Below, in pieces: positions 4,067-53,115 of a stretch of DNA of 64,000 bases; position 1 is the first letter of the stretch, and each line of letters begins with the position of its first letter. The DNA is from a virus (lineage: Duplodnaviria > Caudoviricetes), in the IMG/VR virus record IMGVR_UViG_3300047159_000056, positions 128,001-192,000 of that record, one strand, 5' to 3'. The notes under the pieces are model-generated. The model did no database searches. It had not been told where the DNA came from and worked only from the letters and a program-made list of their open reading frames with translations. Both the position numbers and the translations under genes were made by a program.

Positions 4067-4116
4067 GATCTGATTGAACAGTAGACAACATATTTCATTG
4101 TCATCTTGAAAGAATT

Positions 4117-34770: not shown

Positions 34771-34793
34771 TTTATCTTATTATTTATTTTTTA

Positions 34794-37340: not shown

Positions 37341-37350
37341 GTTTGTTATT

Positions 37351-38226
37351 TTATTTATTTATAGTTATTTGATTTCCATCAATCCTAATTGCACCATGAG
37401 ATGTTAAGAGGTCTATAATATTATCAGGAGCATCATCATAACGCTCTCTCAAGATATCCATAAACTGCTTAATTCCAAAACTTGTGTTTCCATACTCTAC
37501 CTTTAAGTCAGGTATAATATTAGAATCTGTTAACCAAGCCTCTTCACTATTAGGACCTTCTTCTGCTCCCTCACTAAAATTACTTTCAAAAGGAGGCATT
37601 AAACCGTGAGCCTTTCTAATAATAACAATTCCTTTATCAGGTAGAGCTCCATGATTTTCTAAGTCAGATAATACTTCTTCCTTATCCTTGATTCCTTCAG
37701 TTATTTCAGGATCTAGGTCAAGCTCTTTAGTTACTGTTATAATCAACTTACTAAATAATTTTTCTGTCTGATAAGCGGTGTCAGAGATTTTAACTCCAGA
37801 ATCAGTATTAAGAGCAATACCATTTCCAAGCATCTCTTCAGAATTAGAAAACTCTTTCTGAAAAACGTCAGAAGATATAGTCTTCCCACTATACTCTTTC
37901 AACTTTTTTTCATATGGGTTATCCTTATCAAACAAAGATAACTTACTAACCTTTACTGTTTCTACTGTTTGAGCAGGAGATTCAGGAACAGTCATTAAGT
38001 TAAATCTTTTTCCACCACAATGAGGACATACTAAGTGAGATACATTTGCAGACGTTTCCATAACATATCCACAATCTGAACACTTAACTTTTCTTAGGGT
38101 TACTCCTCCCTCATTGTATTCTTCATTTTCGTGAGAGAATAACTTAATCCTTCTTGTTGAAGAAGTATTGGAGAATATCTTTCTTCTATAGTCATTCCCA
38201 AATAATGATATTCTACTTCTTAACAT
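37351..38226 (-). CDS. head-associated protein with Zn-ribbon
   Basis: CSDC...CPHC; multiple KIFS/KLFS/KEYS/KEFS sites; lies between protease and scaffold. Confidence 0.55.
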   Translation of the reverse strand: MLRSRISLFGNDYRRKIFSNTSSTRRIKLFSHENEEYNEGGVTLRKVKCSDCGYVMETSANVSHLVCPHCGGKRFNLMTVPESPAQTVETVKVSKLSLFDKDNPYEKKLKEYSGKTISSDVFQKEFSNSEEMLGNGIALNTDSGVKISDTAYQTEKLFSKLIITVTKELDLDPEITEGIKDKEEVLSDLENHGALPDKGIVIIRKAHGLMPPFESNFSEGAEEGPNSEEAWLTDSNIIPDLKVEYGNTSFGIKQFMDILRERYDDAPDNIIDLLTSHGAIRIDGNQITINK

Positions 38227-39454
38227 TCTTATCCCCTCCTTCTGTTGACTCCTCTAAGGCGGCCTGTTCTACAATACCCTCTGGTAATGGACTAGCACCA
38301 AATACTTCATCAGTCATAGCTTTTATAAATTCTGTATAAGCTTCCTGAATCTTCTTGTACCTCATAGGAGATATTTTGCCTGTCTTAGATATTTCTTGCA
38401 TAGCATATCTATAAGGCATCTGTAAATTTTGTGCAGCAACTCTTACATTCTTTCCCAGAGAAGATGCACCAATTAAGGTATTTATTTGTTTACCAGAAAT
38501 AATATCTGCATTAATACCTTTAATTATATCCAAAACATCTGTGGCAAAAAGTGACTTCATCGTTTTTAGAGTTTCAGGATCAGGCTTCCCAGCTCTCATT
38601 GCCTGCTTGTAATCTATAAACAATCTACGAAATCTCATTCTAGGACTCATCTTAGAAATTCTAACTCTTTCCTTTATTGCAGATGCGGAAAATTGTTTTG
38701 TCTTTAGGCTTTCTCCAACCTCTTCTATTGTACTATTTAGACTGAACTCTTTAGCTTTTAGTACAGTAAAGTGATTGTCTATCTTAGAGGTCTTAGCTAT
38801 ATTATCAGCACCCAAGACACTAAGGTCTGAGAATGATTTTACTTTAAGACCATCATACTTAAGATCATTACTAGTATCAGAAAAACCTCTTTCTTCATCT
38901 ATCGCTGCAATTACTTTTCCATTCTCAGTAACACTAACTACTTGAGCTTTCTTCCAAGAGGGATTCAGTGTGTAGTCGAAGGATTTTATATTAACTAGTT
39001 TCTTCAATACATCACCTGAGTTTGTACTATCCCAATAACCAAGAATTACAGCACTGGCACCTATAAGACACCCGTTCATGAGAAGACCTTTCAATCTTCT
39101 AATATTCTGTTTTGCATTTTCATCCAATGACTCTTCATCTAGGATTTTAGCATTCGCATATAACCAACCATCACCCTCAATTTCAAGAGAAGTTATATAG
39201 TGTGTTGGTGAAGCATCCATAATATCTAAGAGCATATCATCTTTTCCTATTGTATTCTTTACACCAGGATTCAATGACTTAGCACCAGTAGATATATTTC
39301 TTGCTCTGTGCGTAAGAGTTCCTAACATCTTATGCGAAGCAATAGCATTCTTATATTCTGTGCTTTCTAGATATTGACGAACTACCTCTACTGGAATGTG
39401 ACTACCATCCGACGCAGGTTCATTAAATGAAAGGAGTTTAACTCGTACTTCCAT
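38213..39454 (-). CDS. prohead maturation protease (T4 gp21-like)
   Basis: LGTLTH (His), IGAS (Ser), FDYTLNPS motifs; upstream of scaffold and capsid genes. Confidence 0.8.
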   Translation of the reverse strand: MEVRVKLLSFNEPASDGSHIPVEVVRQYLESTEYKNAIASHKMLGTLTHRARNISTGAKSLNPGVKNTIGKDDMLLDIMDASPTHYITSLEIEGDGWLYANAKILDEESLDENAKQNIRRLKGLLMNGCLIGASAVILGYWDSTNSGDVLKKLVNIKSFDYTLNPSWKKAQVVSVTENGKVIAAIDEERGFSDTSNDLKYDGLKVKSFSDLSVLGADNIAKTSKIDNHFTVLKAKEFSLNSTIEEVGESLKTKQFSASAIKERVRISKMSPRMRFRRLFIDYKQAMRAGKPDPETLKTMKSLFATDVLDIIKGINADIISGKQINTLIGASSLGKNVRVAAQNLQMPYRYAMQEISKTGKISPMRYKKIQEAYTEFIKAMTDEVFGASPLPEGIVEQAALEESTEGGDKNVKK

Positions 39455-39489
39455 ATCTATTTTTTATTATATTATTTTTATTACCTAAG

Positions 39490-39540
39490 TTCCCAGAATC
39501 CAATTGAATGGTAGATATCATAAAAATATCGTTCTGGGAA
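39490..39540 (-). ncRNA. three-way-junction RNA element, copy A
   Basis: UUCCCAGAA-C-GAUAU..AUAUC-UA-CCA UUCAAU UGG-A-UUCUGGGAA. Confidence 0.7.
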
Positions 39541-39571
39541 GAGAATTATATATGAACGAATGTGAACAAAA

Positions 39572-40057
39572 TTATTCCTCACTAGTCTGTTCTGGTGCCT
39601 GATTATAGTGCTTCTTGATATATGCCTTCTTAGACATTTTTCCATCAGCAACCTTTTTTAGATCACCATCACTAGACTTATAATAATCATCTATATCTTT
39701 CTCTACTTTTTTCTTAGCAAGATGTTCAGCTCCAATGCCAGCTAATGCTCCTATACCAGATCCAATTAATCTACCTTTTCTAGTATTAAAAGATTTCTTA
39801 GTTGCACTAGCTACAGTATGCCCTAGTAAGCCTCCCATGAGACCAGCCTTTGCATAAGCAGCACCAGGAATAGCGAATTTTTCATTTCTATCTTTTAGAG
39901 CTATTTTTCTTAGCATCTTTTTGTCAGCTCCAGTAAGCTCTTCCTCTTCATCATCCTTAGAAAACAAAGATTCATCAAGATACTCAGTTGTACTGAATAA
40001 TCTCTCTTCACCACTCTCATCTTGCAGTACAGAGAAAACTTTACGTCTTATATACAT
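39572..40057 (-). CDS. MYIRRK-leader glycine-zipper protein
   Basis: MYIRRKVFS...EERLFSTTE leader; C-terminal KVADGKMSK motif shared with 43865 and 44524. Confidence 0.65.
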   Translation of the reverse strand: MYIRRKVFSVLQDESGEERLFSTTEYLDESLFSKDDEEEELTGADKKMLRKIALKDRNEKFAIPGAAYAKAGLMGGLLGHTVASATKKSFNTRKGRLIGSGIGALAGIGAEHLAKKKVEKDIDDYYKSSDGDLKKVADGKMSKKAYIKKHYNQAPEQTSEE

Positions 40058-40062
40058 AGGAT

Positions 40063-40566
40063 TTAATCTTTATTTTTATTCTTAATGTGGTCGTAAAGCT
40101 TATAACCACCATAAGCAGCACCTGTAGCAGCAAGAGCTCCACCAGTAATCTCAGCAGTTAATTTAGCATTTGGATGTTCCTGTGCATATTTAGCAACAGC
40201 AGCTGCGGCCTTCTTAGCAGCATCAGCAGTAACCTTACCACCTGCAGCAGCTTTACCACCAACATATTTACCACCTGCAGCAGCTTTACCACCAACATAT
40301 TTACCACCAGCAGCTACCTTACTTCCTACATACTTTGCACCAGAAGCTACAGCATTACCAACAAATTTTCCACCCTGAACAGCTTTGCCACCTACATATT
40401 TACCTGCAGATACTACTTTATCAGCTGCACCTTTTGCTACTTCCTTTATACCAAACTCTCTCTCATCCAGATAAGAGTCTTCATACATAAATTCAGTTGT
40501 ACTGAATAATCTCTCTTCACCACTCTCATCTTGCAGTACAGAGAAAACTTTACGTCTAATATACAT
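40063..40566 (-). CDS. MYIRRK-leader protein with 11-mer amphipathic repeats and C-terminal anchor
   Basis: GGKYVGGKAAA repeats; 33-bp tandem DNA repeat at ~40236-40308. Confidence 0.65.
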   Translation of the reverse strand: MYIRRKVFSVLQDESGEERLFSTTEFMYEDSYLDEREFGIKEVAKGAADKVVSAGKYVGGKAVQGGKFVGNAVASGAKYVGSKVAAGGKYVGGKAAAGGKYVGGKAAAGGKVTADAAKKAAAAVAKYAQEHPNAKLTAEITGGALAATGAAYGGYKLYDHIKNKNKD

Positions 40567-40638
40567 AACTATTTCTTTTTATTTATTTTATTCATTTATA
40601 CTTCTTTCGAAGCACCCTTATTCATTATAAAGATATTT

Positions 40639-40896
40639 TTATAGATATCTTTTTTCTTTATTTCTTAATCTTCTAAGCTTTTTTATTGGCCTAGTAAAAC
40701 TGAGTACTCTATTTCTAATCTTAGAAGACATTTCACCAACTACAGGAGTATCACCAGCTAAGTTAACTACATGTTCTACACCATCTAGCCCTACATCAAT
40801 TCCGTTATCTATAGCTTTTCCAACTTGAGCAGAACTATATGAGGTTCCTAAAATTGGAATATAACCTGAGTATGTTTTGTCTCTAAGTATTATCAT
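40639..40896 (-). CDS. small leader-bearing protein
   Basis: MIILRDKTYS (identical to 22174). Confidence 0.6.
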   Translation of the reverse strand: MIILRDKTYSGYIPILGTSYSSAQVGKAIDNGIDVGLDGVEHVVNLAGDTPVVGEMSSKIRNRVLSFTRPIKKLRRLRNKEKRYL

Positions 40897-40899
40897 AAA

Positions 40900-41004
40900 C
40901 TAATTGTTATCAGATTCTCTAAGAGGATTAAATAGATTTTCTTTATCTAAGTCTTCTATATTATCCTCTACATTCTTTGTAAATGTTTTTTCTTTTAGTT
41001 TCAT
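40900..41004 (-). CDS. 34-aa peptide with leader-like start
   Basis: MKLKEKTFTKNVEDNIEDLDKENLFNPLRESDNN, read manually. Confidence 0.45.
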   Translation of the reverse strand: MKLKEKTFTKNVEDNIEDLDKENLFNPLRESDNN

Positions 41005-41005
41005 A

Positions 41006-41272
41006 TTACACTAAGAACATTATACCAGCACCTACAATACCACCAATTACCCAAGAAGCAAAATTCCATACATTAAATTTTCTTGACAAAACTAATGTAC
41101 AAACTCCTTCTACAAAAGCACCACTAATAATATCAATAATTATAGCAAGTACCCAAGCATTCTCAGCTGTACCAAGTGATCTCTCCTGCCAAATAGCTAA
41201 AACAGCCAGGATTAAACCTAGGACTGCAAAAAAGATCTTACTGTTAAACAATGTTGTTAAAATGGATTTCAT
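41006..41272 (-). CDS. small three-TM membrane protein (holin candidate)
   Basis: 88 aa with three hydrophobic segments; no leader. Confidence 0.4.
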   Translation of the reverse strand: MKSILTTLFNSKIFFAVLGLILAVLAIWQERSLGTAENAWVLAIIIDIISGAFVEGVCTLVLSRKFNVWNFASWVIGGIVGAGIMFLV

Positions 41273-41290
41273 ATTTTATCCTCCTAATAT

Positions 41291-41755
41291 TTATTTGAAA
41301 GGCATTCCTACTGGAGGAACTGTCTTTGCTTTTGATTTATAAAGACCAGTATTATCATTCATCTTCCTTGTTTCATCGGAAGTCTTCTTTATCTTAATAT
41401 TATTACTCTTCTCCTTCTCAGACTTCTCATCCTCTTGCTTCTGTCTTTGACTAAGCTGCCTCATATCAGACATCTTTTGTTGCTGTTCTAACTTATTTCT
41501 AGCTATCTGATTCTGAACCAACTGCTTTTGTAATTTCATTTGCTGAAGAATTAGTTGTCTAGAAGTAACGTCATTTGTTCTTTGTGCAGCTGACTGTTGA
41601 GCTGATACTTCTGGGGAAACCTGTTGCTGAGCTTGAGCCTGAGATTGTTGTGGAGAAATCATTACCTGTGAACCATCTGTAGGAACATCAGTCTGATCCC
41701 CTTGTACACCCTCCGGATTCTCAAGAGTAAACGACTTTCTTCTTAGTAGTATCAT
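41291..41755 (-). CDS. leader-bearing Q-rich coiled-coil protein
   Basis: MILLRRKSFT. Confidence 0.6.
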   Translation of the reverse strand: MILLRRKSFTLENPEGVQGDQTDVPTDGSQVMISPQQSQAQAQQQVSPEVSAQQSAAQRTNDVTSRQLILQQMKLQKQLVQNQIARNKLEQQQKMSDMRQLSQRQKQEDEKSEKEKSNNIKIKKTSDETRKMNDNTGLYKSKAKTVPPVGMPFK

Positions 41756-42066
41756 TTTTTGTCTTTATCTTTATTTCCGTATTTCTTTTTATTCTTATAG
41801 TGCTTATATGCTGAATAACCACCAACTATGGCAGTTCCAGCTAAGAGAGTATTTCTAAGCATAGGTTCTTTTAGAGCACCCTTAATTGTCTTATCCTCAA
41901 AAAACTTCTTAGGTATAGGTTTGCCATCTACCTTAGCTTTTTTTACAAGATGATTAAGCAATATATCTGTACCAGCCAAAGCACCTAAACCTCCTGCTGC
42001 CATAGCACTTTTTGAAGCTAAACTCTTATCTAACATCTCTCTTTCTTCATCAGTTAATTTTTTCAT
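41752..42066 (-). CDS. basic protein with two hydrophobic helices
   Basis: C-terminal GGYSAYKHYKNKK anchor shared with the leader family, but no leader. Confidence 0.55.
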   Translation of the reverse strand: MKKLTDEEREMLDKSLASKSAMAAGGLGALAGTDILLNHLVKKAKVDGKPIPKKFFEDKTIKGALKEPMLRNTLLAGTAIVGGYSAYKHYKNKKKYGNKDKDKK

Positions 42067-42075
42067 AATAAAGTT

Positions 42076-43770
42076 TTACATGTTTTGTTCTGGATTCTGC
42101 TCATCTAAGAAACTAGCATCTATTCCCTGTTGCTCTGCCTTAGTCTTTAACATAGCTGAAGACCACTTAACATAATTCTCAATAGTAGAATCAGTTATAA
42201 TAGACTCTGTATTTGGATCAATATCTTTAACCAAGTTTTGTATATATCCCAAGAAAGATTTAGTATCTATTAGGGGTGCAGCTTGATCTAAGGTAGCTAG
42301 TGAATTAGTAATAATACCAGTTATACCAGTAACCAAACCACTAATAGACTCACTCTGATTTATCTGATTATTATATTCTACAGACGTCTTCTCAGTTAAG
42401 TGAAGTTTTATTAGGCTGGAATCTATGTCCTTATTGTATAAGATATTGTAGATAGAACATACTAGGTTAGTCATGGAATCTTTTATACCATCCATGAAAC
42501 CAGTAATCTTAGAATTAGCTCTTTCACTCTGCTGTAGAATAGCCCATTTAGAACCAGAAGTAGAATCTAAGATAGTACTAGGAATACCAAGAGGACTAAG
42601 AACAGAACTTTTACAATTATCAAGATTCTGCATTAAGTCTAGTAGTTTATCAGATAACTTATCAAGAGGTAACATACTATTCTTATTGCCTAAGGTAGAG
42701 TTATAATCTGGTACAAACTTAGCTGATTGTGATAATGTATTTTCTATAAAACTAACTACATCAAACTGTGAAGTCAAAAAGCTAGCTAGTTCATTTGTAT
42801 TATTCGCTAGCTTCGTAGTTCTAGCACATAAGTCATTAGCCGTTTCAAGAGGAGTAGACTTATCAAATTGTAACAAAAATATCTGAACACTGCTAAGATC
42901 CCTCAATGATATAAGAGAAATCAGAAGCTCCTTAATAACTAATTCTTTTACTTTTAGAATTAATGAGTAAAACAATGGCTCACCAGCACTAAAAGACTCT
43001 TTCCTAATTACCTTACTTCTATTATTATCTTTGTCTGAATTCTTTCCAAAACTAGGCTTTAATATTTTCTTATTATTGTAATCTTCGTCTAAGTCATTAA
43101 TAAGTCTAAGATTAATGTTTCCTATATAGATTACTTCATTACTCGGTATCTCATATATTTTTCCATCTTCTCCCCTAGCTAAAAATAACTCTTCATTTTC
43201 CCCAGTTTCACTTACACTTCTCTTTTTCTTAGATACAACAGTCACTGGATCATAAAGCTCTTCTATATTAAATACTAGGTGCCCTAAGTCATCCCTACTG
43301 TGTCCAAGCATAGAAAAGTATTCTCCATAATATACATAATCTTTTGAATGATCTCGTATAAAATCAAAAATCTTTATTTGCTTTAGTAAGATATCATTTA
43401 TTCTCTCTGTCTCTGTTTCTTGCTTATTTCCTTCTTCATCTACTATTGTTATAACCTCTCCAGTATTTTGAACTAAGAAATTTATTATATAATCTGAGAA
43501 AAAGTTTGTTGCTAATTTGGATATATCTAATAATTGATAACCCCTTAATTCATCAACCCTCTGATAATACATTGATAATCTATTGGAAGGTGATGCATTT
43601 CCTAAGAGTGGAGATTCTCGCATTCCTGAAAACATTCTATTAGCTGTTCCACCAATAGGGGAATAACCTCTGCCGCCGCCACCACTAAATACATTAGATC
43701 TTAGAGGAACCCTGGAACCGTATCCAATTCCTCCAAATACCTTCTGAAATAATCCTTCGTGCTTTTTCAT
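42076..43770 (-). CDS. portal protein (T4 gp20-like)
   Basis: 564 aa; DYVYYGEYF, LGIP..IL motif; sits between terminase and protease. Confidence 0.75.
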   Translation of the reverse strand: MKKHEGLFQKVFGGIGYGSRVPLRSNVFSGGGGRGYSPIGGTANRMFSGMRESPLLGNASPSNRLSMYYQRVDELRGYQLLDISKLATNFFSDYIINFLVQNTGEVITIVDEEGNKQETETERINDILLKQIKIFDFIRDHSKDYVYYGEYFSMLGHSRDDLGHLVFNIEELYDPVTVVSKKKRSVSETGENEELFLARGEDGKIYEIPSNEVIYIGNINLRLINDLDEDYNNKKILKPSFGKNSDKDNNRSKVIRKESFSAGEPLFYSLILKVKELVIKELLISLISLRDLSSVQIFLLQFDKSTPLETANDLCARTTKLANNTNELASFLTSQFDVVSFIENTLSQSAKFVPDYNSTLGNKNSMLPLDKLSDKLLDLMQNLDNCKSSVLSPLGIPSTILDSTSGSKWAILQQSERANSKITGFMDGIKDSMTNLVCSIYNILYNKDIDSSLIKLHLTEKTSVEYNNQINQSESISGLVTGITGIITNSLATLDQAAPLIDTKSFLGYIQNLVKDIDPNTESIITDSTIENYVKWSSAMLKTKAEQQGIDASFLDEQNPEQNM

Positions 43771-43804
43771 ATTCGTCTAATAATTCTTTTTATAATTCTT
43801 TTAG

Positions 43805-43855
43805 TTTCTGTAGTCTCATTGAAGAGTAGATCCTTATTTCAAATCACTACAGAAA
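43805..43855 (-). ncRNA. three-way-junction RNA element, copy B
   Basis: UUUCUGUAG-U-GAUUU..GGAUC-UA-CUC UUCAAU GAG-A-CUACAGAAA. Confidence 0.7.
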
Positions 43856-43864
43856 GTATATATT

Positions 43865-44434
43865 TTATTTCTTTTTATTCCACTTCTTAGCAAATTCAGA
43901 CTTTGTCATATTGCCATTAGCTACTTCTGTTAAATCAACATCTCTCTCGAATGCCTTTTCATTATTCTTCCAGAATTTCTTTCCTGTTGGATTTTTGGAT
44001 TCTTTTATAGAGTGATTTCTAATAGCTTTACTAACTCTAGTACTTCCATATCCTAATCCAGCACCTACTCCAGCACCAGCAAGACCACCAATAGCGGCTC
44101 CTTTAGCTCCTCCTTTAACATAGCCTAAACCTGCTCCAGTAATAGAACCAAGAGCACCATTGACAATAGCCTCTCTTTTCCCGGCTTTTTTCCATGCCTC
44201 TGGATCATTTTTACCAAGTCCTACAACCAAATTTCTTTCTCCTTTTGTCATAAGATGCTTTCTATTCCATGCGGTGACTTTGTCTAGAAGCTTCATCTTA
44301 GGCTCATCTTCTGGATCTGAATACATTAGCTCATCTAAGTATTGATCTTCATCTACAAATTCTGTGGTGCTAAATAGTCTTTCCTCTCCACTCTCATCTT
44401 GTAGTGTAGAGAATACTTTTCTTCTTATATACAT
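43865..44434 (-). CDS. MYIRRK-leader glycine-zipper protein
   Basis: Leader plus GAKGAAIGGLAGAGVGAGLG. Confidence 0.65.
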   Translation of the reverse strand: MYIRRKVFSTLQDESGEERLFSTTEFVDEDQYLDELMYSDPEDEPKMKLLDKVTAWNRKHLMTKGERNLVVGLGKNDPEAWKKAGKREAIVNGALGSITGAGLGYVKGGAKGAAIGGLAGAGVGAGLGYGSTRVSKAIRNHSIKESKNPTGKKFWKNNEKAFERDVDLTEVANGNMTKSEFAKKWNKKK

Positions 44435-44463
44435 ATTCTTATTCTTTTTATAATTCTTTTAGT

Positions 44464-44512
44464 TCTCTCAGTCTCATCGAAGAGTAGATTCATTTTACAA
44501 ATCGCTGAGAGA
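44464..44512 (-). ncRNA. three-way-junction RNA element, copy C
   Basis: UCUCUCAG-C-GAUUUG..UGAAUC-UA-CUC UUCGAU GAG-A-CUGAGAGA. Confidence 0.7.
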
Positions 44513-44523
44513 TAATAGTTAGA

Positions 44524-45069
44524 TTAGAAATTATAATTTCTCTTCATATATTCTTTCTTAGACATCTTGCCATCTGCTACCTTCATTAGGTCTACGTCAT
44601 CCTGCAATTCCTGTCTATAATTATTTGTATATTTGTGTCTTAGGGCTTCCTTCTGATTTTTTGCCAACTTTCTTGAAGCAAGAGCACCAATACCTGCACC
44701 AACTCCAGTACCAGCAAGAGCACCAATAGCAGCTCCCTTAGCACCAGCCATAGATCCCATACCTGCTCCATAGAGCCCGCCAATTACACCACCTACTTGG
44801 CCACCACGTTTGGTTGTATGTTTAATATACGGCTCCCAATCATTTTTCTCAATAGCATTCTCTGCTACTTCTCTTCCTTTTTTGGTTTTAAACCACTTAA
44901 GATCTCTAAGTCTAGCTTTATCGGATTTTGTAAGTTCCTGATCTTCATCATCAGAGAAACAAATTTCGTCTAGATATTCGTCTTCATTCATAAATTCAGT
45001 TGTACTGAACAATCTTTCCTCACCATTTTCATCTTCAAATGTAGAGAATACTTTCCTTCTTATATACAT
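44524..45069 (-). CDS. MYIRRK-leader glycine-zipper protein
   Basis: Leader plus GAKGAAIGALAGTGVGAGIG. Confidence 0.65.
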   Translation of the reverse strand: MYIRRKVFSTFEDENGEERLFSTTEFMNEDEYLDEICFSDDEDQELTKSDKARLRDLKWFKTKKGREVAENAIEKNDWEPYIKHTTKRGGQVGGVIGGLYGAGMGSMAGAKGAAIGALAGTGVGAGIGALASRKLAKNQKEALRHKYTNNYRQELQDDVDLMKVADGKMSKKEYMKRNYNF

Positions 45070-45074
45070 AGTTT

Positions 45075-45464
45075 TTATTTCTTTTTATTTTTGTAGTGAT
45101 TATATGCCATTATCCCAGCTCCTGCAAGAACCGTTCCAGCTGTAGCAAGAGAAATGGCTTTTTTATTTCTCTTAAAGAAAGAGTCCTTTGGCTTTACTAT
45201 ATAATAATTTTGTGGTAAGTGCTTAGCAATTTCCTGTTCACTTTCTGGAATAATAGTTTCCATTCCAGCTAGCTTCTTTGCCTTCTCTAATGCTTTTTCT
45301 CTATTATTATCTAGATATTCTTTCAAAGGTTTAAATGGACCTTGCTTTCTTAGTTTTCTATATTTATCAGCCAGTTCTTTTCTGGTTTTCTTTAAATACT
45401 TAGATTCAGCACTATTAAGAGAAATATAATCCCTCTTAGCAAAATTTTTATTTAGTAGTATCAT
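45075..45464 (-). CDS. leader-bearing basic protein with C-terminal anchor
   Basis: MILLNKNFA; paralog of 46006; ends AYNHYKNKKK. Confidence 0.6.
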   Translation of the reverse strand: MILLNKNFAKRDYISLNSAESKYLKKTRKELADKYRKLRKQGPFKPLKEYLDNNREKALEKAKKLAGMETIIPESEQEIAKHLPQNYYIVKPKDSFFKRNKKAISLATAGTVLAGAGIMAYNHYKNKKK

Positions 45465-45994
45465 TTCTTATTAAGTTTCTTTAACCTATCCTTAGTATTT
45501 ATCTCAGCACCAAGAACAGCAGATTTTCTCTTTTTTAATATCTTAGGAATATGTGCTCCTGCTGCTACTAATGCTACTCCAGCTCCTATAAGACCAGCCT
45601 TTTTACTTATCTTTGGAGCTACCCCATTAGCAAATGCAGTAGCTTTATTATATGGTAATTTGCCGTTCTCTTGTAAATAATTTATAGCATTCTTTCCAAA
45701 CTTAGAAACTAAGTAAGCTGCTCCTCCGTATTTTACTGCATCTTCTACTGGATCCTCCATATTTTCAAGAAGAACCTTATTTCCGGCAGCTCTTTTTGCA
45801 GCCTTTACTATATGCTCATCATCTTTACCTTCTGCAAAAGCTTCATCTGCTGCTTTTTGTCCAGCCCTAAATGACTCTTCAGCTTCAGTTTTCTTATTTC
45901 TATCTTGAGTCCAACCTACACCAATTCTAGATCCTGGTAAAACAGTTCTAGTTCTATTGGATGATTTACTGAAGTTTGTTCTCCTTAGTATCAT
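45461..45994 (-). CDS. leader-bearing basic protein
   Basis: MILRRTNFS. Confidence 0.6.
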   Translation of the reverse strand: MILRRTNFSKSSNRTRTVLPGSRIGVGWTQDRNKKTEAEESFRAGQKAADEAFAEGKDDEHIVKAAKRAAGNKVLLENMEDPVEDAVKYGGAAYLVSKFGKNAINYLQENGKLPYNKATAFANGVAPKISKKAGLIGAGVALVAAGAHIPKILKKRKSAVLGAEINTKDRLKKLNKK

Positions 45995-46005
45995 AATTTA
46001 TAAAC

Positions 46006-46413
46006 TTATTTAGACTGGTTCTGTTTTTTCTTCTTGTAGTGTGTATATGCTAAGGTTGCAGCGCCCGCTAAAGCACCACTCATTGCAGCACTACCCATAG
46101 CCATCTTATGATTCTTAATAAAATTTCCGACCCTCTTTGTAAGCTTCTCTTTAACAGGAGTTATTACTTTAGTTTCACCATTCAATATCTTATATTTAGA
46201 ATCTAAGAGTTCTTTCCTAGCATCAGAAATAGCAGATTGTCTTAAGGCATCCTTAACTGGTTTACCAAATATTATTCCCTTAAGTCCACTAGCTCTTGTA
46301 TTTCTAATTGAGTCAGCTACGGCCTTTCTTTTGCCCTTGAGAATTTCAGCTTCTCTTTTTGTTAAGCCTTCATAATCGGCTCTAGCAAAATTTTTATTTA
46401 GGAGTATTATCAT
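46006..46413 (-). CDS. leader-bearing basic protein with C-terminal anchor
   Basis: MIILLNKNFA; ends AYTHYKKKK. Confidence 0.6.
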   Translation of the reverse strand: MIILLNKNFARADYEGLTKREAEILKGKRKAVADSIRNTRASGLKGIIFGKPVKDALRQSAISDARKELLDSKYKILNGETKVITPVKEKLTKRVGNFIKNHKMAMGSAAMSGALAGAATLAYTHYKKKKQNQSK

Positions 46414-46414
46414 A

Positions 46415-48283
46415 TTAAAATATATTTTCTAGCATATCTTGTACTACCTTTGCTGACTCTTCTCTAGAATCTTCAGCCATTTTAGAGATAATGCTAAGTT
46501 GTTTATCTACCCCATTACTATATCCAGATTCCTCTCCAGCATCTATAGACATTTTTAAGCTATAACATGCACTAGCCAAGGAATCCCAAACATCTTTACT
46601 TCCTTTTCCATTATTAACATCAAAGACATTAGAATTTTGAGTTGCTTTCTTAGGGTGATCTATTTTATATCCCTTTGAAGTAGGAACATATCTAAGATCA
46701 TAAGCCTCCCTTAATAATCTTCTATTTTCTGGTATCTCAATCATTTCTAAGAGTATGAGATTTTTTAAATATAAGGCTGGATCACAAGGAACATTATCAG
46801 TAGAAATTCTTCCGTTAGTAGCTATGTTTTCCCTTTCACAATCTTGAAGAATTTGTTTAGAGAAAGCTATATCGGCACTAACTACAATATTATATGTTTT
46901 CTTAAGAGACATAATTAAGTCAAATACATGAAATAAACTAGTCTCTTGTCCTTCCTTTCGAGCTATAGCCAAACTAAATATACACTTAACTTTAGGCCAC
47001 TTAACTCCATTTATTATCTCCCAACCATCAAACTGAACTGCACTCATTCCAGTATAATCATCTACTGTAGCTAAGTCAAGTCCTAACCAAATAGTAGAAG
47101 TTGGTCTAACTAATGATAAGGCAGGAGAAATTTTATCTATTATTCTATCAGTCTTATCAAAAAAGTCAACCTGGATAATCTCTGGTATATTATTCTTTTT
47201 CTTATAACAATTTACCATATGCTCCATGTTTCCACCAAAGAATGAATCAGATGCACTAGTAGAAACACCACACTTATCCTGTAATGTTTTTTCTAGATTC
47301 AATTTGCATTCAACCATTAATTGCCAGGGTAATCTAAGAACTCTATCTGGATCTTGGTCTTCTGCTAATTTATAATCTTCAGCTAATATTTGTGGAGGAT
47401 ATTTACCATCTCCTATATATACTGGGAAAGTTCTACCACGACTCTCTTTATAGGATTGTGGTTTAACTTCATAATGAGTTGGCTTACAGTACCAAGTTAA
47501 ATCAGAAGGAGAATTATCTAAGAACCATTCAGTACAGGAATTATTACCTTTTGCTGAGGAGTCTATAATTAAGTTTCCCACCTTAGTCATTGCATCTCTA
47601 TCAAATCTAGATGTAAAACGACCATATGCTGTTTCAACTATTCCTTGCGCTTTCTCTTGATTAGGATAGAAGTTAATCTCACTTATTATATATACAAGAA
47701 CATCACTACCAAGACCAGCCTGACTTAGAGGGCCTGATGTTAGTACTTGAAATTTAAAACTTTTCTTAGTATTTTTGAAGAATGGTGACTTTTCCAAAAC
47801 TTCTTGAGTAAACCAATACTTAAACTCTTTTCTTGCAACCTCTTCATCCCTGTGATAGATAACTGCACTAAAAGGCTTTGGAGTTAGTTTAAGAGTTCTA
47901 CTAGGATTATTCATACAAAGAAGTCTAGCATAAGTCATAGCTAAACATAATCTAGATACAGTAGACTTACCAGTACCAATTGCTCCAGATAGAACTAAGA
48001 ATGGTTTTGCAGTTAAGACAGAACTGGGATAAATTATTGGTAAACTCTTCTTCCAATAGTCAAAGAGATTATTTCCTTTATCAAAAAATTCTGTTCCTCC
48101 TAAGAAATACTCATCAGAATATAATTGCTCTATACTAGGTGGTATTTTATTGTAACCATTTATCTTACAAAATATTAATAGTTTTTCTTCATCCGTTAAC
48201 TTTGCATATTGCTCCTCTATTGAAACTCCACTGAAATCAATTAGGGATGTTGGGTCTGTATGATCTATAAAACTATTTATCAT
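46415..48283 (-). CDS. terminase large subunit
   Basis: Walker A SGAIGTGKS, YIISE (Walker B), DSS motif III, RNase H-like GLDLATVDD, IDHP...KDVWDS. Confidence 0.85.
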   Translation of the reverse strand: MINSFIDHTDPTSLIDFSGVSIEEQYAKLTDEEKLLIFCKINGYNKIPPSIEQLYSDEYFLGGTEFFDKGNNLFDYWKKSLPIIYPSSVLTAKPFLVLSGAIGTGKSTVSRLCLAMTYARLLCMNNPSRTLKLTPKPFSAVIYHRDEEVARKEFKYWFTQEVLEKSPFFKNTKKSFKFQVLTSGPLSQAGLGSDVLVYIISEINFYPNQEKAQGIVETAYGRFTSRFDRDAMTKVGNLIIDSSAKGNNSCTEWFLDNSPSDLTWYCKPTHYEVKPQSYKESRGRTFPVYIGDGKYPPQILAEDYKLAEDQDPDRVLRLPWQLMVECKLNLEKTLQDKCGVSTSASDSFFGGNMEHMVNCYKKKNNIPEIIQVDFFDKTDRIIDKISPALSLVRPTSTIWLGLDLATVDDYTGMSAVQFDGWEIINGVKWPKVKCIFSLAIARKEGQETSLFHVFDLIMSLKKTYNIVVSADIAFSKQILQDCERENIATNGRISTDNVPCDPALYLKNLILLEMIEIPENRRLLREAYDLRYVPTSKGYKIDHPKKATQNSNVFDVNNGKGSKDVWDSLASACYSLKMSIDAGEESGYSNGVDKQLSIISKMAEDSREESAKVVQDMLENIF

Positions 48284-48308
48284 ATATTATCCAACTTATT
48301 TTATTTAG

Positions 48309-48355
48309 TTTCTGTAGTCTCATCGAAGAGTAGACACCTAAAGTCGCTACAGAAA
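48309..48355 (-). ncRNA. three-way-junction RNA element, copy D
   Basis: UUUCUGUAG-C-GAC..GUC-UA-CUC UUCGAU GAG-A-CUACAGAAA. Confidence 0.7.
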
Positions 48356-48363
48356 GTATATTT

Positions 48364-48849
48364 TTAAATTCCGATTATTTCTCTAAGAGGACGTCCTTTT
48401 CCTCCATTAATAGATTGCATTCTTGAATTAAATTTTGCAAGGTCTACAGCATTCTTAACGGCTTTCTTAGTAACTGGCTGACCAGATTCTCTAAGGCCTA
48501 CTCTAGCAAATCTTCCTAAAGCTTTTTGTACACTTGGATTAGTGGTGTTATATATTCCTTTTCCGGCTCTTCCAGATCTTCCAGCTATACCAATGACTTT
48601 ATTTATTACTTCCTCCTTATTTGCATTCTCTATTCCTCTTCTGCTGATCTTTTTACCAATATCTCTTATTCTAGAAAGTGCTTTGGCCTGACTTCTTATA
48701 GATGCATACTCTTTCTGTTCAGGTTCTTCGTCAGAATACATCATTTCATCCAGATATTGATCTTCGTCTACAAATTCTGTAGAACTAAATAGTCTTTCCT
48801 CACCATTCTCATCTTCAAATGTCGAGTATAGTTTACGTCTTATATACAT
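48364..48849 (-). CDS. MYIRRK-leader basic protein
   Basis: Likely start ATG 48849 (MYIRRKLYS...EERLFS...QKEYA), followed by an R/K-rich body. Confidence 0.65.
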   Translation of the reverse strand: MYIRRKLYSTFEDENGEERLFSSTEFVDEDQYLDEMMYSDEEPEQKEYASIRSQAKALSRIRDIGKKISRRGIENANKEEVINKVIGIAGRSGRAGKGIYNTTNPSVQKALGRFARVGLRESGQPVTKKAVKNAVDLAKFNSRMQSINGGKGRPLREIIGI

Positions 48850-48850
48850 G

Positions 48851-49575
48851 TTATTTCTTTTTATTATGTTTATATTGGTAATATTTATAACCACCATATC
48901 CAATACCACTAGCTAATGCCAATCCTCCAGCAACTTTGCCGACTGTCTTAAGATTTTTGATTCTTCTTAATTTGGCATTTTTTAGAATCTCAGTCTTCTT
49001 TGCTGCGGCTTTAGCTTCTGCTCTAGCAATATTTTCAGACTTAGCTCTAGCCTCTGCTCTAGCTTTTTCTCTCAACTCTTCTTTTATTTTTGCCTTAGCA
49101 TTTTCAGCATTAATTCGCTTCTTGATATCATCCTCTACTTGTTTTTCTATGGCGGATTTATTACGTTTTAATTTATTATCAAAAAGTTGACTTTGATGTT
49201 CTGGACTAAGTCTATGGATTCTAGAGAACTTATCATTAAATAAACTCTTAGCTCCCCTTCTTTGAGCGGCTCTTCCTTCTTTAAGTAGTGATTCCTGCTT
49301 ATCGGCCAGTTTAGATATATCTTTCATACCTTCTACTTTGGGACTCCAAGATCCTCCTTTAACTAAAGGTGTGGTAGAAGCAACCTTATATTTATCATAT
49401 ACCTTCTTATAGCTTTTATCTATAGGGTTAGTAAGAAAATTATCAGTTGAAGCACTTTCTAATCCTATCTTCATATCAGACAATGCTCTTCTAGCCTTTT
49501 GTGCTTTGGAATTAAAGGTTCTTTCCTCTATCTCCCCCCCCCCCCTGAGAGGATATTGTTTCTTAATATTATCAT
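48851..49575 (-). CDS. leader-bearing basic anchor protein interrupted by an out-of-frame G12 tract
   Basis: ATG 49575 overlaps the upstream TGA (ATGA); MIILRNNILS-G12; G10 or G13 would fuse it to ORF 48851..49483 via EIEERTFNSKAQKARRA. Confidence 0.7.
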
Positions 49576-49865
49576 TTTATTTTATTAATTAGAGCTCTTC
49601 CTTTTTCAAGAGCTAATTGTTGTCTAACTGCAGTGTCTAATTCTAGTGTCTGAGGTGAAAACTTAGGATTATCAAAAGGAACAATTAGGTTTTTATATTT
49701 TTCCAGAGTCCTAAGAGAACCGCCCTTAGTTACTGGTTTCTGTATAGCGCTTTTGTATAATGCTTTCTCATACATAGGACCTTCAATCCCCTTTTTCATA
49801 ATCCACTTATTCTTTAGAATCTTATTAAGCCTATTAGAATAAGTTTTTTGTCTTAAGACTATCAT
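49572..49865 (-). CDS. small leader-bearing basic protein
   Basis: MIVLRQKTYS. Confidence 0.6.
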   Translation of the reverse strand: MIVLRQKTYSNRLNKILKNKWIMKKGIEGPMYEKALYKSAIQKPVTKGGSLRTLEKYKNLIVPFDNPKFSPQTLELDTAVRQQLALEKGRALINKIK

Positions 49866-50569
49866 GATATTCCGTTATCTTTTTTTAATAAGTCCATAAA
49901 TTTCTCTATGGTTTTCTTTGTTTCTGGATCATCAAATTCTTCATTACCAGTTTTTTCTGCTAATTTCTTCAATTCTAATTCAGAACCGTCAATCATAATG
50001 TCATCTTTCATCTCTTCTATCTGTGTAATAAAGTTCATGATCTCTCGTACAGCTAAGAAGGTATCTTGAATTGTCATCTGAGACTTATCAAAAAGGTTCT
50101 TAGGATCCAGTACATAATCAATAGCCAAGCTTAATTTACTTAGCATATGAACAATTAAGATAGGACGAATTGACTTAAATATTTCACTGAGATATAATTC
50201 TAATGTTCTTCTGCTCTTTGGGTCACTTACATTTACTAGAGTTTGAGATAGAGAATCAAAATTTATCTGAAGGTCTGTTCCATACTCTTTATTATATTTT
50301 GTAAATACCTGACTAAGAGCTAATTGCATTTCTTGTGCTTTTTGTTCTTTTTCGTTTTTAGACAGGGCAGAGGCATCTACTATTATATTCTTAGCAGTTC
50401 CAGATAGAGGTAATTTAGGAGCCTTTGATATAATTGATTTCATATCTGACTCTACATCTTGATCAGGCTCTATTAATTCATAGTTGTCTGACCTATGATC
50501 TTCTTTACTATTACTTCCTAAGATCTGGCGCTTAAATTCTTCATTATCAAAAGGATTTATTGCCTCCAT
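49862..50569 (-). CDS. helical hypothetical protein (terminase small subunit candidate)
   Basis: 235 aa, helical, no leader, upstream of the large terminase; position only. Confidence 0.3.
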   Translation of the reverse strand: MEAINPFDNEEFKRQILGSNSKEDHRSDNYELIEPDQDVESDMKSIISKAPKLPLSGTAKNIIVDASALSKNEKEQKAQEMQLALSQVFTKYNKEYGTDLQINFDSLSQTLVNVSDPKSRRTLELYLSEIFKSIRPILIVHMLSKLSLAIDYVLDPKNLFDKSQMTIQDTFLAVREIMNFITQIEEMKDDIMIDGSELELKKLAEKTGNEEFDDPETKKTIEKFMDLLKKDNGIS

Positions 50570-50581
50570 AATTATAACTCC

Positions 50582-50731
50582 TTAATTTGTAGTTGATTTA
50601 TCAGTTGCAGCTGCCTTTGATGCTCTTTCCATTTCCTCACCAAGAGATGCAGCTTGTTCTCCGTAGTCTTCATTTTGCATAGCCTCTACGTCAGAATCTG
50701 AAACTGAATATTTCTTTCTTAATAATATCAT
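50582..50731 (-). CDS. 49-aa leader-bearing acidic peptide
   Basis: MILLRKKYSVSDSDVEAMQNEDYGEQ..., read manually; ATGA overlap with the upstream gene. Confidence 0.6.
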   Translation of the reverse strand: MILLRKKYSVSDSDVEAMQNEDYGEQAASLGEEMERASKAAATDKSTTN

Positions 50732-51177
50732 TGCTGTGGTTGTTGTTGAGATTGATCTAGATTACTTTTCTTCTTTAGAAACATAGATCCAAGTACACCA
50801 GCTGCAGCTAATCCAAGTCCAGCTTTTCCCATTCTTGCTATATTTTTTCCAGCACCTGTAGCACCAAATTTACTCATGTCTCTAACATAACCAGATGCTT
50901 GTTTATAATTCATCCTCATATTGGGGCTAGTAAGAACAGTTTTTAATCCTCCTTCTACTCCATTATTAATCAAAGCTTTATTTGCAGCAATACCATGTTG
51001 AATTGCAGAGGCAGTGGCTAGACCTGCTCCAGTTACAGCAGCTCCTTTGGCTATAGTGGAACCTATATTGCTTCCTTGAGAATTATCTTGTGAATCACCA
51101 TTAATGGATCCAGTATTTTTTCCACTTCCAGTCATAAAATCCATCATCCCAAAAGATTTATTTCTTAGTATTATCAT
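50728..51177 (-). CDS. leader-bearing G/A-rich two-helix protein
   Basis: Likely start ATG 51177 (MIILRNKSFG). Confidence 0.6.
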   Translation of the reverse strand: MIILRNKSFGMMDFMTGSGKNTGSINGDSQDNSQGSNIGSTIAKGAAVTGAGLATASAIQHGIAANKALINNGVEGGLKTVLTSPNMRMNYKQASGYVRDMSKFGATGAGKNIARMGKAGLGLAAAGVLGSMFLKKKSNLDQSQQQPQQ

Positions 51178-51817
51178 TTCTACTATTCTTATCTTTATAG
51201 TGTTTATATGCAACTAATCCAAGACCAGCTAGAGTTAAGGCAGATGCTCCACCAACTAATAATTTTCCCTTCTTTGATTCTAGGAAAGTATCACCTAGAT
51301 TTGGATTAGACATAACATCTTTTAACATGGCAGATTTTTCTCTACCTATTTCTATATATCTATTTGGAAACTCTTTTCTAACCTTTCTTATTCCAGAGGC
51401 TAGAGCTTTCCTATAAGACTTCAATGCCTTAGTCTGATTTTTATTAAGACCTTTAAAATCAGATCTAGAGAAACTTTTTATCATATCCATCCTATTATTT
51501 CCAGTATCATTAGATTTAACCCAACCTAATTTAGTATATAGGTCTACAGCTTTCTTATTACTTTTTGTTACTGATAATTTTTTAGCAGGGCTACGTTCTA
51601 AAAGACTTGTTGCTATTCCTTGATTTCTATATTTTGGATCTACAAATAGTGCAGTTATCCAATCATTTTCCCAGGATTTAAAACCAACCAGGGAAGACTT
51701 ATCAACTAACATTATTCCTTTAGTTTTACCAGGAATATATCTAGCATGGCAAAGAGAATTTCCAGGCCTTTTATATTGTAGTATATTTTCCTTGTTATAT
51801 TCTATTTCTTTTACCAT
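51158..51817 (-). CDS. GNAT acetyltransferase fused to a leader-family anchor module
   Basis: LFVDPKYRNQGIATSLL motif A, N.KAV.LY.KLGW motif B; internal IKSFS followed by a 45075/46006-like module. Confidence 0.75.
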   Translation of the reverse strand: MVKEIEYNKENILQYKRPGNSLCHARYIPGKTKGIMLVDKSSLVGFKSWENDWITALFVDPKYRNQGIATSLLERSPAKKLSVTKSNKKAVDLYTKLGWVKSNDTGNNRMDMIKSFSRSDFKGLNKNQTKALKSYRKALASGIRKVRKEFPNRYIEIGREKSAMLKDVMSNPNLGDTFLESKKGKLLVGGASALTLAGLGLVAYKHYKDKNSRNDNTKK

Positions 51818-51956
51818 AATTTATTTCAGTTTATTTTTACATAATCTGGGGAAGTGTGTTTAACTCAGGTCTCCTCTTTCTACCTGACACCTCCCACTAG
51901 CATCAATTAGTTTTACCGTTAGTTATGTTAGCTACTGTACTTCACTAAACTTACGA

Positions 51957-52103
51957 CTATAACCACATTGGACCTTTGTATCCCTTGTCGTAAAGATTTT
52001 CATAACTCTTAGCTGCTAAAAGTATATAAGCTTTAAACGGCAAAATCAAATAATGACCTGTCGTTTTAGCAGCCGTCTTAATAAAATTAAAAACTGCTTT
52101 CAT
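51957..52103 (-). CDS. 48-aa small protein in a highly structured transcript
   Basis: MKAVFNFIKTAAKTTGHYLILPFKAYILLAAKSYENLYDKGYKGPMWL, read manually. Confidence 0.5.
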   Translation of the reverse strand: MKAVFNFIKTAAKTTGHYLILPFKAYILLAAKSYENLYDKGYKGPMWL

Positions 52104-52149
52104 AATAGAACTAAGATGTGGAGTCGAACCACAACCTAGTTAAATTTGT

Positions 52150-52193
52150 TCTCTCAGTCTAATTGAAGAGATAGGTTCTTCACCTCTGAGAGA
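52150..52193 (-). ncRNA. three-way-junction RNA element, divergent copy E
   Basis: UCUCUCAG-AGGU..ACCU-AU-CUC UUCAAU UAG-A-CUGAGAGA. Confidence 0.55.
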
Positions 52194-52198
52194 TATAT

Positions 52199-52835: not shown

Positions 52836-53115
52836 AATTTAATTTATTTATATGGTTTCAAAAACAGATTCGAAAGTACAGGAAAAGAATGGAAAATTTT
52901 ACTAGGTATCCAACCTAGTATTAATTCCTCAATCTTAATTCAACAACCTGCACTAACGAATCCTCTGAAAATTTGTTTCAATTTCTACAAATAAGGAATT
53001 GTTAAAAAATAGGGTCAATTTTTGGGCGTTTTTTGTAAAAATTTGGCCGTTTTATTCAAAAAATTGACCTGATTAACCATAAAAACCTTATCTTTGATTA
53101 AAAATAATAAAAAAT

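What the first reader, a model, noticed from the sequence alone, without database searches (positions are those of the whole stretch)
39490..52193. Five copies of a covarying three-way-junction RNA with a T-loop-like hairpin in the head operon
Seen at 39490-39540, 43805-43855, 44464-44512, 48309-48355 and 52150-52193. The mRNA-strand consensus is P1 (8-9 bp) - Y - P2 (GA..UC, variable loop) - UA - P3 (3 bp, loop UUCRAU) - A - P1'; copy E deviates. P1 occurs as three different fully paired sequences (UUCCCAGAA, UUUCUGUAG, UCUCUCAG), and P3 covaries (CUC/GAG versus CCA/UGG). G-U pairs in P2 favour the minus strand, and there is no U-tail, so these are not simple terminators. Four copies lie just 3' of MYIRRK-leader genes, and three lie just 5' of the protease, portal and terminase genes. 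Inference: tRNA-mimic processing or stability sites, or protein-binding elements that tune high-copy cargo against low-copy machinery. I do not recognise it as a named RNA family.
Basis: partly seen in the sequence, partly recalled or inferred. Interest (0 to 1): 0.82.

Follow-up and report, generated by a model that had tools for sequence, protein, structure and literature searches.

The report
Mini-tRNA spacers in phage head operon
Between the head-building genes of this uncultured jumbo phage sit small RNA folds that copy the top half of a host tRNA, in slots where some relatives keep real tRNA genes, so the phage probably uses the host's tRNA-trimming enzymes to cut its long message into pieces, a layout known from mitochondria but not found in the papers I searched for phages.

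Summary
The five elements are real. A sixth copy lies at 4057-4111, and a different tRNA-like minihelix at 52106-52141. A covariance model gives 101 matches in the window and 55 related jumbo-phage loci, all on the mRNA strand, with compensatory changes in all 17 pairs and no Rfam match. The fold is a tRNA top-half mimic: a 9-bp plus a 3-bp stem make the 12-bp acceptor/T arm, the loop is UUCRAU, and the tail is N73-C74-W75-A76. That tail matches tRNA genes of Bacteroidota and of this phage clade (C74 at 98-100%, CCA mostly absent), not Bacillota. In some relatives a single real tRNA gene stands in the slot before portal, protease or terminase instead; no slot held both. Best reading (about 60%): host RNase P, and probably RNase Z, cut here and punctuate the late transcript, like mitochondrial t-elements. 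Cleavage and expression are inferred, not shown. This scan has noted similar tRNA top-half spacers in other phages; I could not test whether they belong to this family.

The parts
39487..39539 (-). Copy A: 9/3 mini-tRNA element (tRNA-numbered +1 at 39539, discriminator 39490, tail ACUU); 32 nt after a MYIRRK gene, 36 nt before the prohead protease
43802..43854 (-). Copy B (+1 at 43854, discriminator 43805, tail ACUA); 35 nt before the portal gene
44460..44512 (-). Copy C (+1 at 44512, discriminator 44463, tail ACUA); between two MYIRRK genes
48306..48354 (-). Copy D (+1 at 48354, discriminator 48309, tail ACUA); 26 nt before the large terminase
52146..52193 (-). Copy E, degenerate (one P3 mismatch, shifted junction; tail ACAA)
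4057..4111 (-).
52106..52141 (-). Second type of tRNA top-half mimic: straight minihelix with a canonical 5-bp T stem, 7-nt loop UUCGACU and tail UCUA, ending 2 nt before the ATG of a 48-aa gene
   Evidence: (z -4.4)
51957..52103 (-). 48-aa small gene whose homologues are preceded by various tRNA-like folds
38213..39454 (-). Prohead protease (T4 gp21 fold); first gene of the protease-Zn-ribbon-scaffold-capsid block downstream of copy A
   Evidence: 5JBL, E 4e-5
42076..43770 (-). Portal protein, downstream of copy B
   Evidence: T4, P1 and G20c portals, E about 2e-5 to 1e-4
46415..48283 (-). Large terminase, downstream of copy D
   Evidence: 25-28% identity to annotated TerL
39572..40057 (-). 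MYIRRK-leader gene upstream of copy A
43865..44434 (-). MYIRRK-leader gene between copies C and B
44524..45069 (-). MYIRRK-leader gene upstream of copy C
48364..48849 (-). MYIRRK-leader gene (from the internal ATG) upstream of copy D

Best explanation
Each element is a minimal tRNA mimic built into the late head/packaging polycistronic mRNA of a jumbo phage that probably infects Bacteroidota. SHOWN: a conserved RNA fold on the mRNA strand, in which P1 (9 bp) and P3 (3 bp) add up to the 12 bp of a tRNA acceptor/T arm, capped by UUCRAU and followed by N73-C74-W75-A76, with one variable side arm (P2) in place of the D, anticodon and variable arms; the tail equals that of host-type and phage tRNA genes; real tRNA genes fill the same slots in some relatives. 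INFERRED: host RNase P measures from the T-loop and cuts 5' of P1. The host 3'-maturation route for CCA-less tRNAs (RNase Z, or trimming to C74) probably cuts at the other end and releases a 45-55 nt mini-tRNA that the phage's own PF01743 nucleotidyltransferase may tail. The long transcript is thereby split into units with separate lifetimes and translation. ALSO INFERRED: the mimics took over a punctuation role that interspersed tRNA genes play in sister lineages. Which neighbour gains or loses stability cannot be told from sequence.
For: Compensatory changes in all 17 pairs; 93% of cells paired against 59% shuffled and at most 51% in slid controls. Non-circular test 47/55 against 0. All 101 CM matches on the coding strand; 48 G-U against 12 A-C pairs. 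C at the 14th nt after the loop in 90% of 61 hits chosen without P1 or that C, against 10% at each neighbour; 12-nt 3' arm in 74 of 81 (model-fitted). Tail: C74 95% and CCA 3 of 81 in elements; C74 98% in 91 clade tRNA genes; C74 100% and CCA 6 of 35 in Bacteroidota tRNA genes; CCA 92 of 96 in Bacillota. Slot before portal: 12 elements, 4 tRNAs; protease: 11 and 1; terminase: 9 and 1; never both. The portal clade holding the window (20 rows, 100/99) has no tRNA genes in these loci, while three outside lineages have a tRNA before portal. Bacteroidales genomes carry type A RNase P RNA with the L15 GGU (4 of 4) and an RNase Z homologue (3 of 3). RNase P uses the 12-bp T-loop ruler and RCCA pairing and cleaves acceptor/T-arm hairpin models (PMC11143913); it also cleaves CCA-less precursors (PMC1874595); 9/3 tRNAs are processed in E. 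coli (PMC5389517).
Against: The loop has 6 nt rather than 7, there is no conserved G53-C61 pair and no D-loop partner, and +1 is mostly U (63 of 81), whereas U-1/G+1 is called optimal for RNase P (PMC10731613); cleavage could be slow or absent. No slot needs it: 36 of 52 portal, 24 of 36 protease and 22 of 32 terminase genes have neither a CM match nor a tRNA in front, though divergent forms slip under the model. Variants with a different P3 loop, or bare hairpins with the same ends, exist. The host is inferred, and the element-tRNA anticorrelation (rho -0.40) is not phylogenetically independent.
Confidence: 0.62

Rival explanations
1. The fold is tRNA-shaped but is not cut. It works in place as a binding site or roadblock: it blocks an exonuclease to protect the upstream or downstream mRNA, binds a host or phage protein, or pauses the phage's own RNA polymerase.
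For: Stable stem a median 14 nt after a stop codon. Non-canonical 6-nt loop and U+1. Half the copies carry a second UGNRA loop on P2 (41 of 81), which tRNA-processing enzymes do not need. The clade encodes a beta-like RNA polymerase subunit.
Against: A roadblock or protein site does not need exactly 12 bp from T-loop to a discriminator, followed by the host's C74-W75-A76 pre-tRNA tail. Real tRNAs, which must be cut out to work, occupy the same slots.
Confidence: 0.18
2. The element is cut out, but the product matters more than the cut: an abundant anticodon-less mini-tRNA that acts as a decoy or sponge for tRNA-binding defence nucleases, EF-Tu, Ro60 or processing enzymes late in infection.
For: Placement in a late operon would give high expression. 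All four phage records searched encode a PF01743 nucleotidyltransferase, even G000, in which only two tRNA-like matches were found.
Against: Copies stand singly at gene boundaries, not in arrays. P1 and P2 sequences are free to vary and there is no anticodon-like loop. No Ro60/TROVE gene was found in four phage records.
Confidence: 0.1
3. DNA-level repeats that serve as recombination or insertion sites for shuffling leader-bearing cargo genes, or neutral relics of decayed tRNA genes copied along with gene duplications.
For: Copies B and C share their 3' flanks, B and D share P1, and C and E share P1. Some copies bracket inserted genes of about 600 aa, such as L015:14728 and L015:16780.
Against: Strict strand bias, G-U over A-C pairs, a T-loop consensus, many different fully paired P1 sequences and a host-matched tRNA tail all point to selection on RNA structure.
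Confidence: 0.06
4. A self-cleaving ribozyme or an intrinsic terminator.
For: Small three-way junction between genes; some copies end an operon in relatives.
Against: No Rfam ribozyme match at gathering or E up to 10. The only conserved unpaired letters are the T-loop, UA and C74-W-A. There is no U tail and none of the five 9/3 copies in the scanned region is a terminator hit. In L057 a separate terminator-like hairpin follows the element.
Confidence: 0.04

Closest known systems
Plant mitochondrial t-elements and mitochondrial tRNA punctuation (Forner et al. 2007, PMC1920247)
   Same: tRNA-like folds, or real tRNAs, inside polycistronic transcripts whose ends coincide with mRNA ends; RNase P and RNase Z are the proposed cutters; reduced acceptor-like stem-loops also occur.
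   Different: Here a bacteriophage late operon and a bacterial host; a fixed 9/3 three-way junction with a 6-nt loop instead of decayed cloverleaves; ends not mapped.
9/3 allo-tRNAs (Mukai et al. 2017, PMC5389517)
   Same: 12-bp acceptor branch split 9+3; processed by bacterial enzymes.
   Different: Allo-tRNAs keep D, anticodon and long variable arms and translate. This element has one variable arm, no anticodon and is 45-55 nt long.
Canonical phage tRNA genes (Rfam RF00005)
   Same: Same N73-C74-W75 tail, same strand and same intergenic slots in related phages.
   Different: Not detected by ARAGORN or RF00005; no D or anticodon arm; 3-bp T stem.
Non-tRNA substrates of bacterial RNase P: C4 antisense RNA of P1/P7, phage M3 RNA, tmRNA, 4.5S RNA, some operon mRNAs (reviewed in PMC11143913)
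   Same: Host RNase P acting on phage or mRNA structures through an acceptor/T-arm-like helix.
   Different: Those are single RNAs or incidental sites, not a repeated dedicated spacer family at gene boundaries.
Bacterial and phage Y RNAs, YrlA (PMC4201824)
   Same: tRNA-mimicking domain with a T arm; found in some phages.
   Different: No Ro60 gene nearby or in four phage records, no Ro-binding module, and much shorter.
mascRNA/menRNA of MALAT1 and NEAT1 (from my own knowledge, not checked here)
   Same: Small tRNA-like unit cut by RNase P and RNase Z to define the end of a longer RNA.
   Different: Eukaryotic, cloverleaf-like with a 7/5 arm, paired with a triple helix.

Membership tests
t-element / tRNA punctuation signal | tRNA-like fold with an acceptor/T arm inside a polycistronic transcript at gene boundaries | tested here: met
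   12-bp arm, T-loop and tRNA-gene tail; intergenic and on the mRNA strand
t-element / tRNA punctuation signal | Canonical T-arm motif GGTTCRANYCC used to find them in PMC1920247 | tested here: not met
   3-bp stem, 6-nt loop and variable closing pair in the 9/3 family; the 52106-52141 minihelix does carry the motif
t-element / tRNA punctuation signal | Transcript ends coincide with the element's ends; cleavage by RNase P or RNase Z | not testable with these tools
Canonical tRNA (RF00005) | Cloverleaf with D arm, 7-nt anticodon loop and 7/5 arm | tested here: not met
   No ARAGORN or Rfam call; a single variable side arm of 10-21 nt
9/3 allo-tRNA | 12-bp acceptor branch of 9+3 | tested here: met
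9/3 allo-tRNA | D arm, anticodon arm and long variable arm | tested here: not met
   absent in all aligned copies
Y RNA / YrlA | Encoded within about 4 kb of a Ro60 (TROVE) gene and carrying a Ro-binding motif | tested here: not met
   No PF05731 in G000, G001, G009 or G014; no Rfam hit
Known small self-cleaving ribozymes in Rfam | Match to a family model with its catalytic core | tested here: not met
Intrinsic terminator | GC-rich hairpin followed by a U run | tested here: not met
   Tail is ACUA and A-rich; no 9/3 copy among the terminator hits
Candidate structured RNAs of Fremin et al. 2023 (PMC10690425) | Identity with one of the 10,006 listed viral candidates | not testable with these tools
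   Supplements not held; the passages read describe no such motif

The most novel reading that the evidence does not exclude
These jumbo phages run a mitochondrion-style tRNA punctuation programme on their virion operon, and the clade preserves its evolution: real tRNA genes between structural genes in some lineages, shortened 7/5 minihelices and 9/3 mini-tRNAs in others, all tuned to the Bacteroidota C74-only tail, with a phage nucleotidyltransferase handling the excised products. The 9+3 arm with a 6-nt loop would be a new natural minimal substrate for bacterial RNase P.
Probability: 0.4. Interest if true: 0.85.

Novelty: new variant of a known kind. Interest (0 to 1): 0.7.

Why it matters
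If true, a phage uses essential host tRNA-maturation enzymes as a programmable mRNA cutter for virion genes, a mode of gene control so far described mainly in mitochondria. It offers a testable second reason why large phages scatter tRNA genes through their genomes, a long-standing question: some may be kept as processing signals and can be replaced by mimics that have no decoding ability. It supplies about 80 natural variants of a 45-55 nt candidate RNase P/RNase Z substrate. It also raises the side question of why Bacteroidota tRNA genes keep C74 but not CCA. A compact, sequence-flexible processing spacer would be useful for multi-gene or guide-RNA expression in Bacteroides.

Tried and rejected
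Rfam at gathering score over the window and at E up to 10 over 38500-53500 gave nothing relevant; ARAGORN found nothing in the window. An exact 20-nt pattern found no viral contig. Two looser patterns found only members of the same leader-bearing clade, plus one short contig I could not place (L243); the other pattern hits were not CM matches. The CM found nothing in 13 bacterial genomes, but only 150 candidates per genome were scored. No promoter consensus appears upstream of the elements beyond A/U richness, and sigma-70-like sites are at chance level, so a promoter-linked leader was dropped. A phage-encoded RNase P RNA, RNase Z or Ro60 was not found. The paper on C74 as an RNase Z antideterminant was not held, so I do not rely on it. 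I did not count L014 as a tRNA before portal: its tRNA-Glu/Leu pair precedes a second, cut-off portal-like start at the contig end. The genes after tRNA-Arg in L049/L055/L057 and after the degenerate tRNA in L012 look like the 48-aa gene at the N-terminus but were not recovered by my HMM, so a full tRNA-to-minihelix series at that slot is not shown. R-scape was not available; the pair counts do not correct for phylogeny.
Full report
Setting. The window is bases 128001-192000 of a 207,396-nt linear virus record, estimated 56% complete. Relatives reach 350-420 kb and come from metagenomes, mostly with rumen- or gut-like labels. Long genes lack Shine-Dalgarno sequences (10 of 113 SD-like) and have A-rich leaders with A at -3. 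From my own knowledge this is the Bacteroidota style of initiation, so the host is inferred, not shown. The head module runs on the minus strand. The 622-aa ORF matches annotated large terminases, the 564-aa ORF folds like T4, P1 and G20c portals, and the N-terminal 200 aa of the 413-aa ORF fold like T4 gp21 protease.

Observation. All five elements are present as described. A descriptor scan of the whole contig found them well above shuffles and revealed a sixth copy at 4057-4111. A covariance model finds exactly these six in the contig (150 of 209 candidates scored) and no further clear copy in an unfiltered scan of the window. Rfam and ARAGORN call nothing here.

The family. From 93 loci fetched through portal and terminase relatives I aligned 50 copies and built model R1. 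It gives 101 matches in 56 sources, every one on the coding strand. On the fitted alignment all 17 pairs show changes on both sides, and 93% of cells pair against 59% in shuffles and at most 51% in slid registers. Because my seed scan demanded pairing, I ran a non-circular test using only unpaired letters. Of 55 coding-strand matches, 47 had both P3 and P1 fully paired; none did among 12 opposite-strand matches or in three shuffled sets. G-U pairs outnumber A-C 48 to 12 outside the junction pair. In longer records the copies number 2 to 7 where found and cluster in the head and packaging region. Wider pattern searches reached a more distant branch of the same clade (terminase 32% identical) but no clearly unrelated phage.

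Anatomy. P1 (9) and P3 (3) therefore form 12 positions between the loop and the first unpaired base, the length of a tRNA acceptor plus T stem. The loop is UUCGAU (58) or UUCAAU (15) of 81, the first six letters of a tRNA T-loop. In hits chosen without using P1 or the tail, a C appears at the 14th nucleotide after the loop in 90% of cases and at 10% on either side, which is tRNA position 74. P2 varies from 10 to 21 nt and carries a UGNRA loop in half the copies; it has no anticodon-like constancy. The 5' flank is only A/U-rich. The element starts a median 14 nt after the upstream stop, and about half the copies end 15-46 nt before the next start.

The tail. Elements end N73 (A 70%), C74 (95%), W75, A76 (81%), with CCA in only 3 of 81. 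The 91 tRNA genes in the clade's loci have C74 in 98% and no CCA among their ten commonest tails. A sample of 35 Bacteroidota tRNA genes, biased to the neighbourhood of initiator tRNA, has C74 in 100% and CCA in 6. Of 96 Bacillota tRNA genes, 92 encode CCA. The mimic thus copies the precursor tail of the inferred host phylum, which is hard to explain unless the host's tRNA-processing enzymes read it.

Exchange with real tRNAs. Looking for variants in loci without a match, I found true tRNA genes standing singly between head genes on the same strand. Before portal there are 12 elements and 4 tRNAs (Leu-UAG in L012 and L050, Arg-UCU in L026 and L051); before the protease 11 and 1 (Asp in L048); before terminase 9 and 1 (an anticodon-disrupted tRNA in L046). 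No slot held both. The loci include near-identical genomes, and most slots hold neither. On a portal tree the 20-row clade with the window (100/99) has no tRNA in these loci, while three outside lineages have a tRNA before portal. L012, L046 and L049 carry both kinds at different slots, so the mimic is older than the loss of tRNAs. Direction of change was not tested. Other reduced forms exist. A 7/5 minihelix with a canonical T arm lies at 52106-52141, and homologues of its downstream 48-aa gene are preceded by minihelices, short-insert 7/5 folds, a 9/3 element or a bare hairpin. Divergent 9/3 copies and bare hairpins with the same ends appear at low score elsewhere.

Enzymes. Four Bacteroidales genomes have type A RNase P RNA with the L15 GGU intact and three of three have an RNase Z homologue. 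No phage RNase P RNA, RNase Z or Ro60 was found. All four phage records searched encode a PF01743 nucleotidyltransferase, in G000 at C1:66824-67204 within a 494-aa frame; this family includes both CCA-adding enzymes and poly(A) polymerases and I did not separate them. Literature: RNase P measures 12 bp from the T-loop, pairs GGU with RCC and cleaves hairpin models of the acceptor/T arm (PMC11143913). It cleaves CCA-less precursors, and RNase Z acts on those lacking CCA (PMC1874595). 9/3 tRNAs are processed and used in E. coli (PMC5389517). U75 could wobble with the L15 G that normally pairs C75; this is my inference.

Mechanism. Shown: fold, geometry, strand, tail, position and slot sharing with tRNAs. 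Inferred: RNase P cuts 5' of P1, the 3' route for CCA-less tRNAs cuts or trims at the other end, and the late transcript is split into units (about 0.62). If only RNase P cuts, the downstream message keeps a structured 5' end; if only the 3' cut occurs, the upstream message keeps a protective stem. Sequence cannot decide this. Against cleavage stand the 6-nt loop, the missing D-loop partner and G53-C61 pair, and U at +1, where U-1/G+1 is described as optimal (PMC10731613), although U1-A72 is common in this clade's tRNAs. An uncut binding or blocking element is the main rival (0.18), then a functional excised mini-tRNA (0.10).

Comparison and novelty. It works like a plant mitochondrial t-element (PMC1920247) but fails that family's canonical T-arm motif, and cleavage is untested, so I do not file it as a member. 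It is not a tRNA, allo-tRNA, Y RNA, Rfam ribozyme or terminator. Nine paper searches that ran found no description of such spacers in phage structural operons; the Fremin 2023 catalogue could not be checked. This scan has earlier, unchecked notes of tRNA top-half spacers in other phages, mostly in early operons. My reading was recorded before that look-up. A sequence look-up with copy C found no look-alike, and I could not test family identity. What this locus adds is the 9/3 geometry with a 6-nt loop, the host-matched C74 tail and the slot exchange with real tRNA genes. Verdict: real, a new variant of a known kind of signal, interest 0.7.

Noticed in passing
window 4057-4111 (-): Sixth full copy of the element, 35 kb from the head block; it overlaps or abuts the start of the next ORF.
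   Followed up: yes
window 52106-52141 (-): Canonical 7/5-type tRNA minihelix ending 2 nt before the ATG of a 48-aa gene; cutting after the discriminator would leave an almost leaderless message.
   Followed up: partly
L094-L173 (Bacteroidota tRNA loci): All 35 sampled Bacteroidota tRNA genes keep C74 although only 6 encode CCA, which suggests a phylum-specific requirement in RNase P binding or 3' maturation. Small, biased sample.
   Followed up: partly
G000:C1:66824-67204 (+), outside the window: Phage-encoded PF01743 nucleotidyltransferase (CCA-adding or poly(A) polymerase family), present in all four clade records searched.
   Followed up: partly
   Followed up: no
window 33316-52735 (-): Many small genes share an N-terminal leader ending in a [KR]-x-[FY]-S-like motif, which also recurs in scaffold, protease and capsid; already noted by other readers.
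   Followed up: no
L004:4458-4519 and L004:6611-6672: Variants in which the P3 loop is ACCAAA instead of a T-loop while P2 keeps a UGAAA loop and the tail stays ACU.
   Followed up: no
L014:7148-7190: tRNA-Thr-like sequence with the anticodon region missing between two GTTGG repeats, leaving a minihelix; a real deletion or an assembly artefact.
   Followed up: no
L046:1471-1550: tRNA with an insertion in the anticodon loop 28 nt before the large terminase, as expected of a tRNA kept for shape rather than decoding.
   Followed up: partly
L015:14728-16842; L010:14217-14422: Elements bracket or precede inserted genes of about 600 aa (DUF723-type in L010), perhaps insulating mobile genes from the operon.
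   Followed up: no
G001:C1:174688-175608; G009:C1:115798-117087: The clade encodes a divergent RNA polymerase beta-like subunit; none was found in the partial G000 record.
   Followed up: no
window 14636-14714 (-): Weak CM match (18 bits, E 0.08) inside ORF 13061-15355; probably chance.
   Followed up: no
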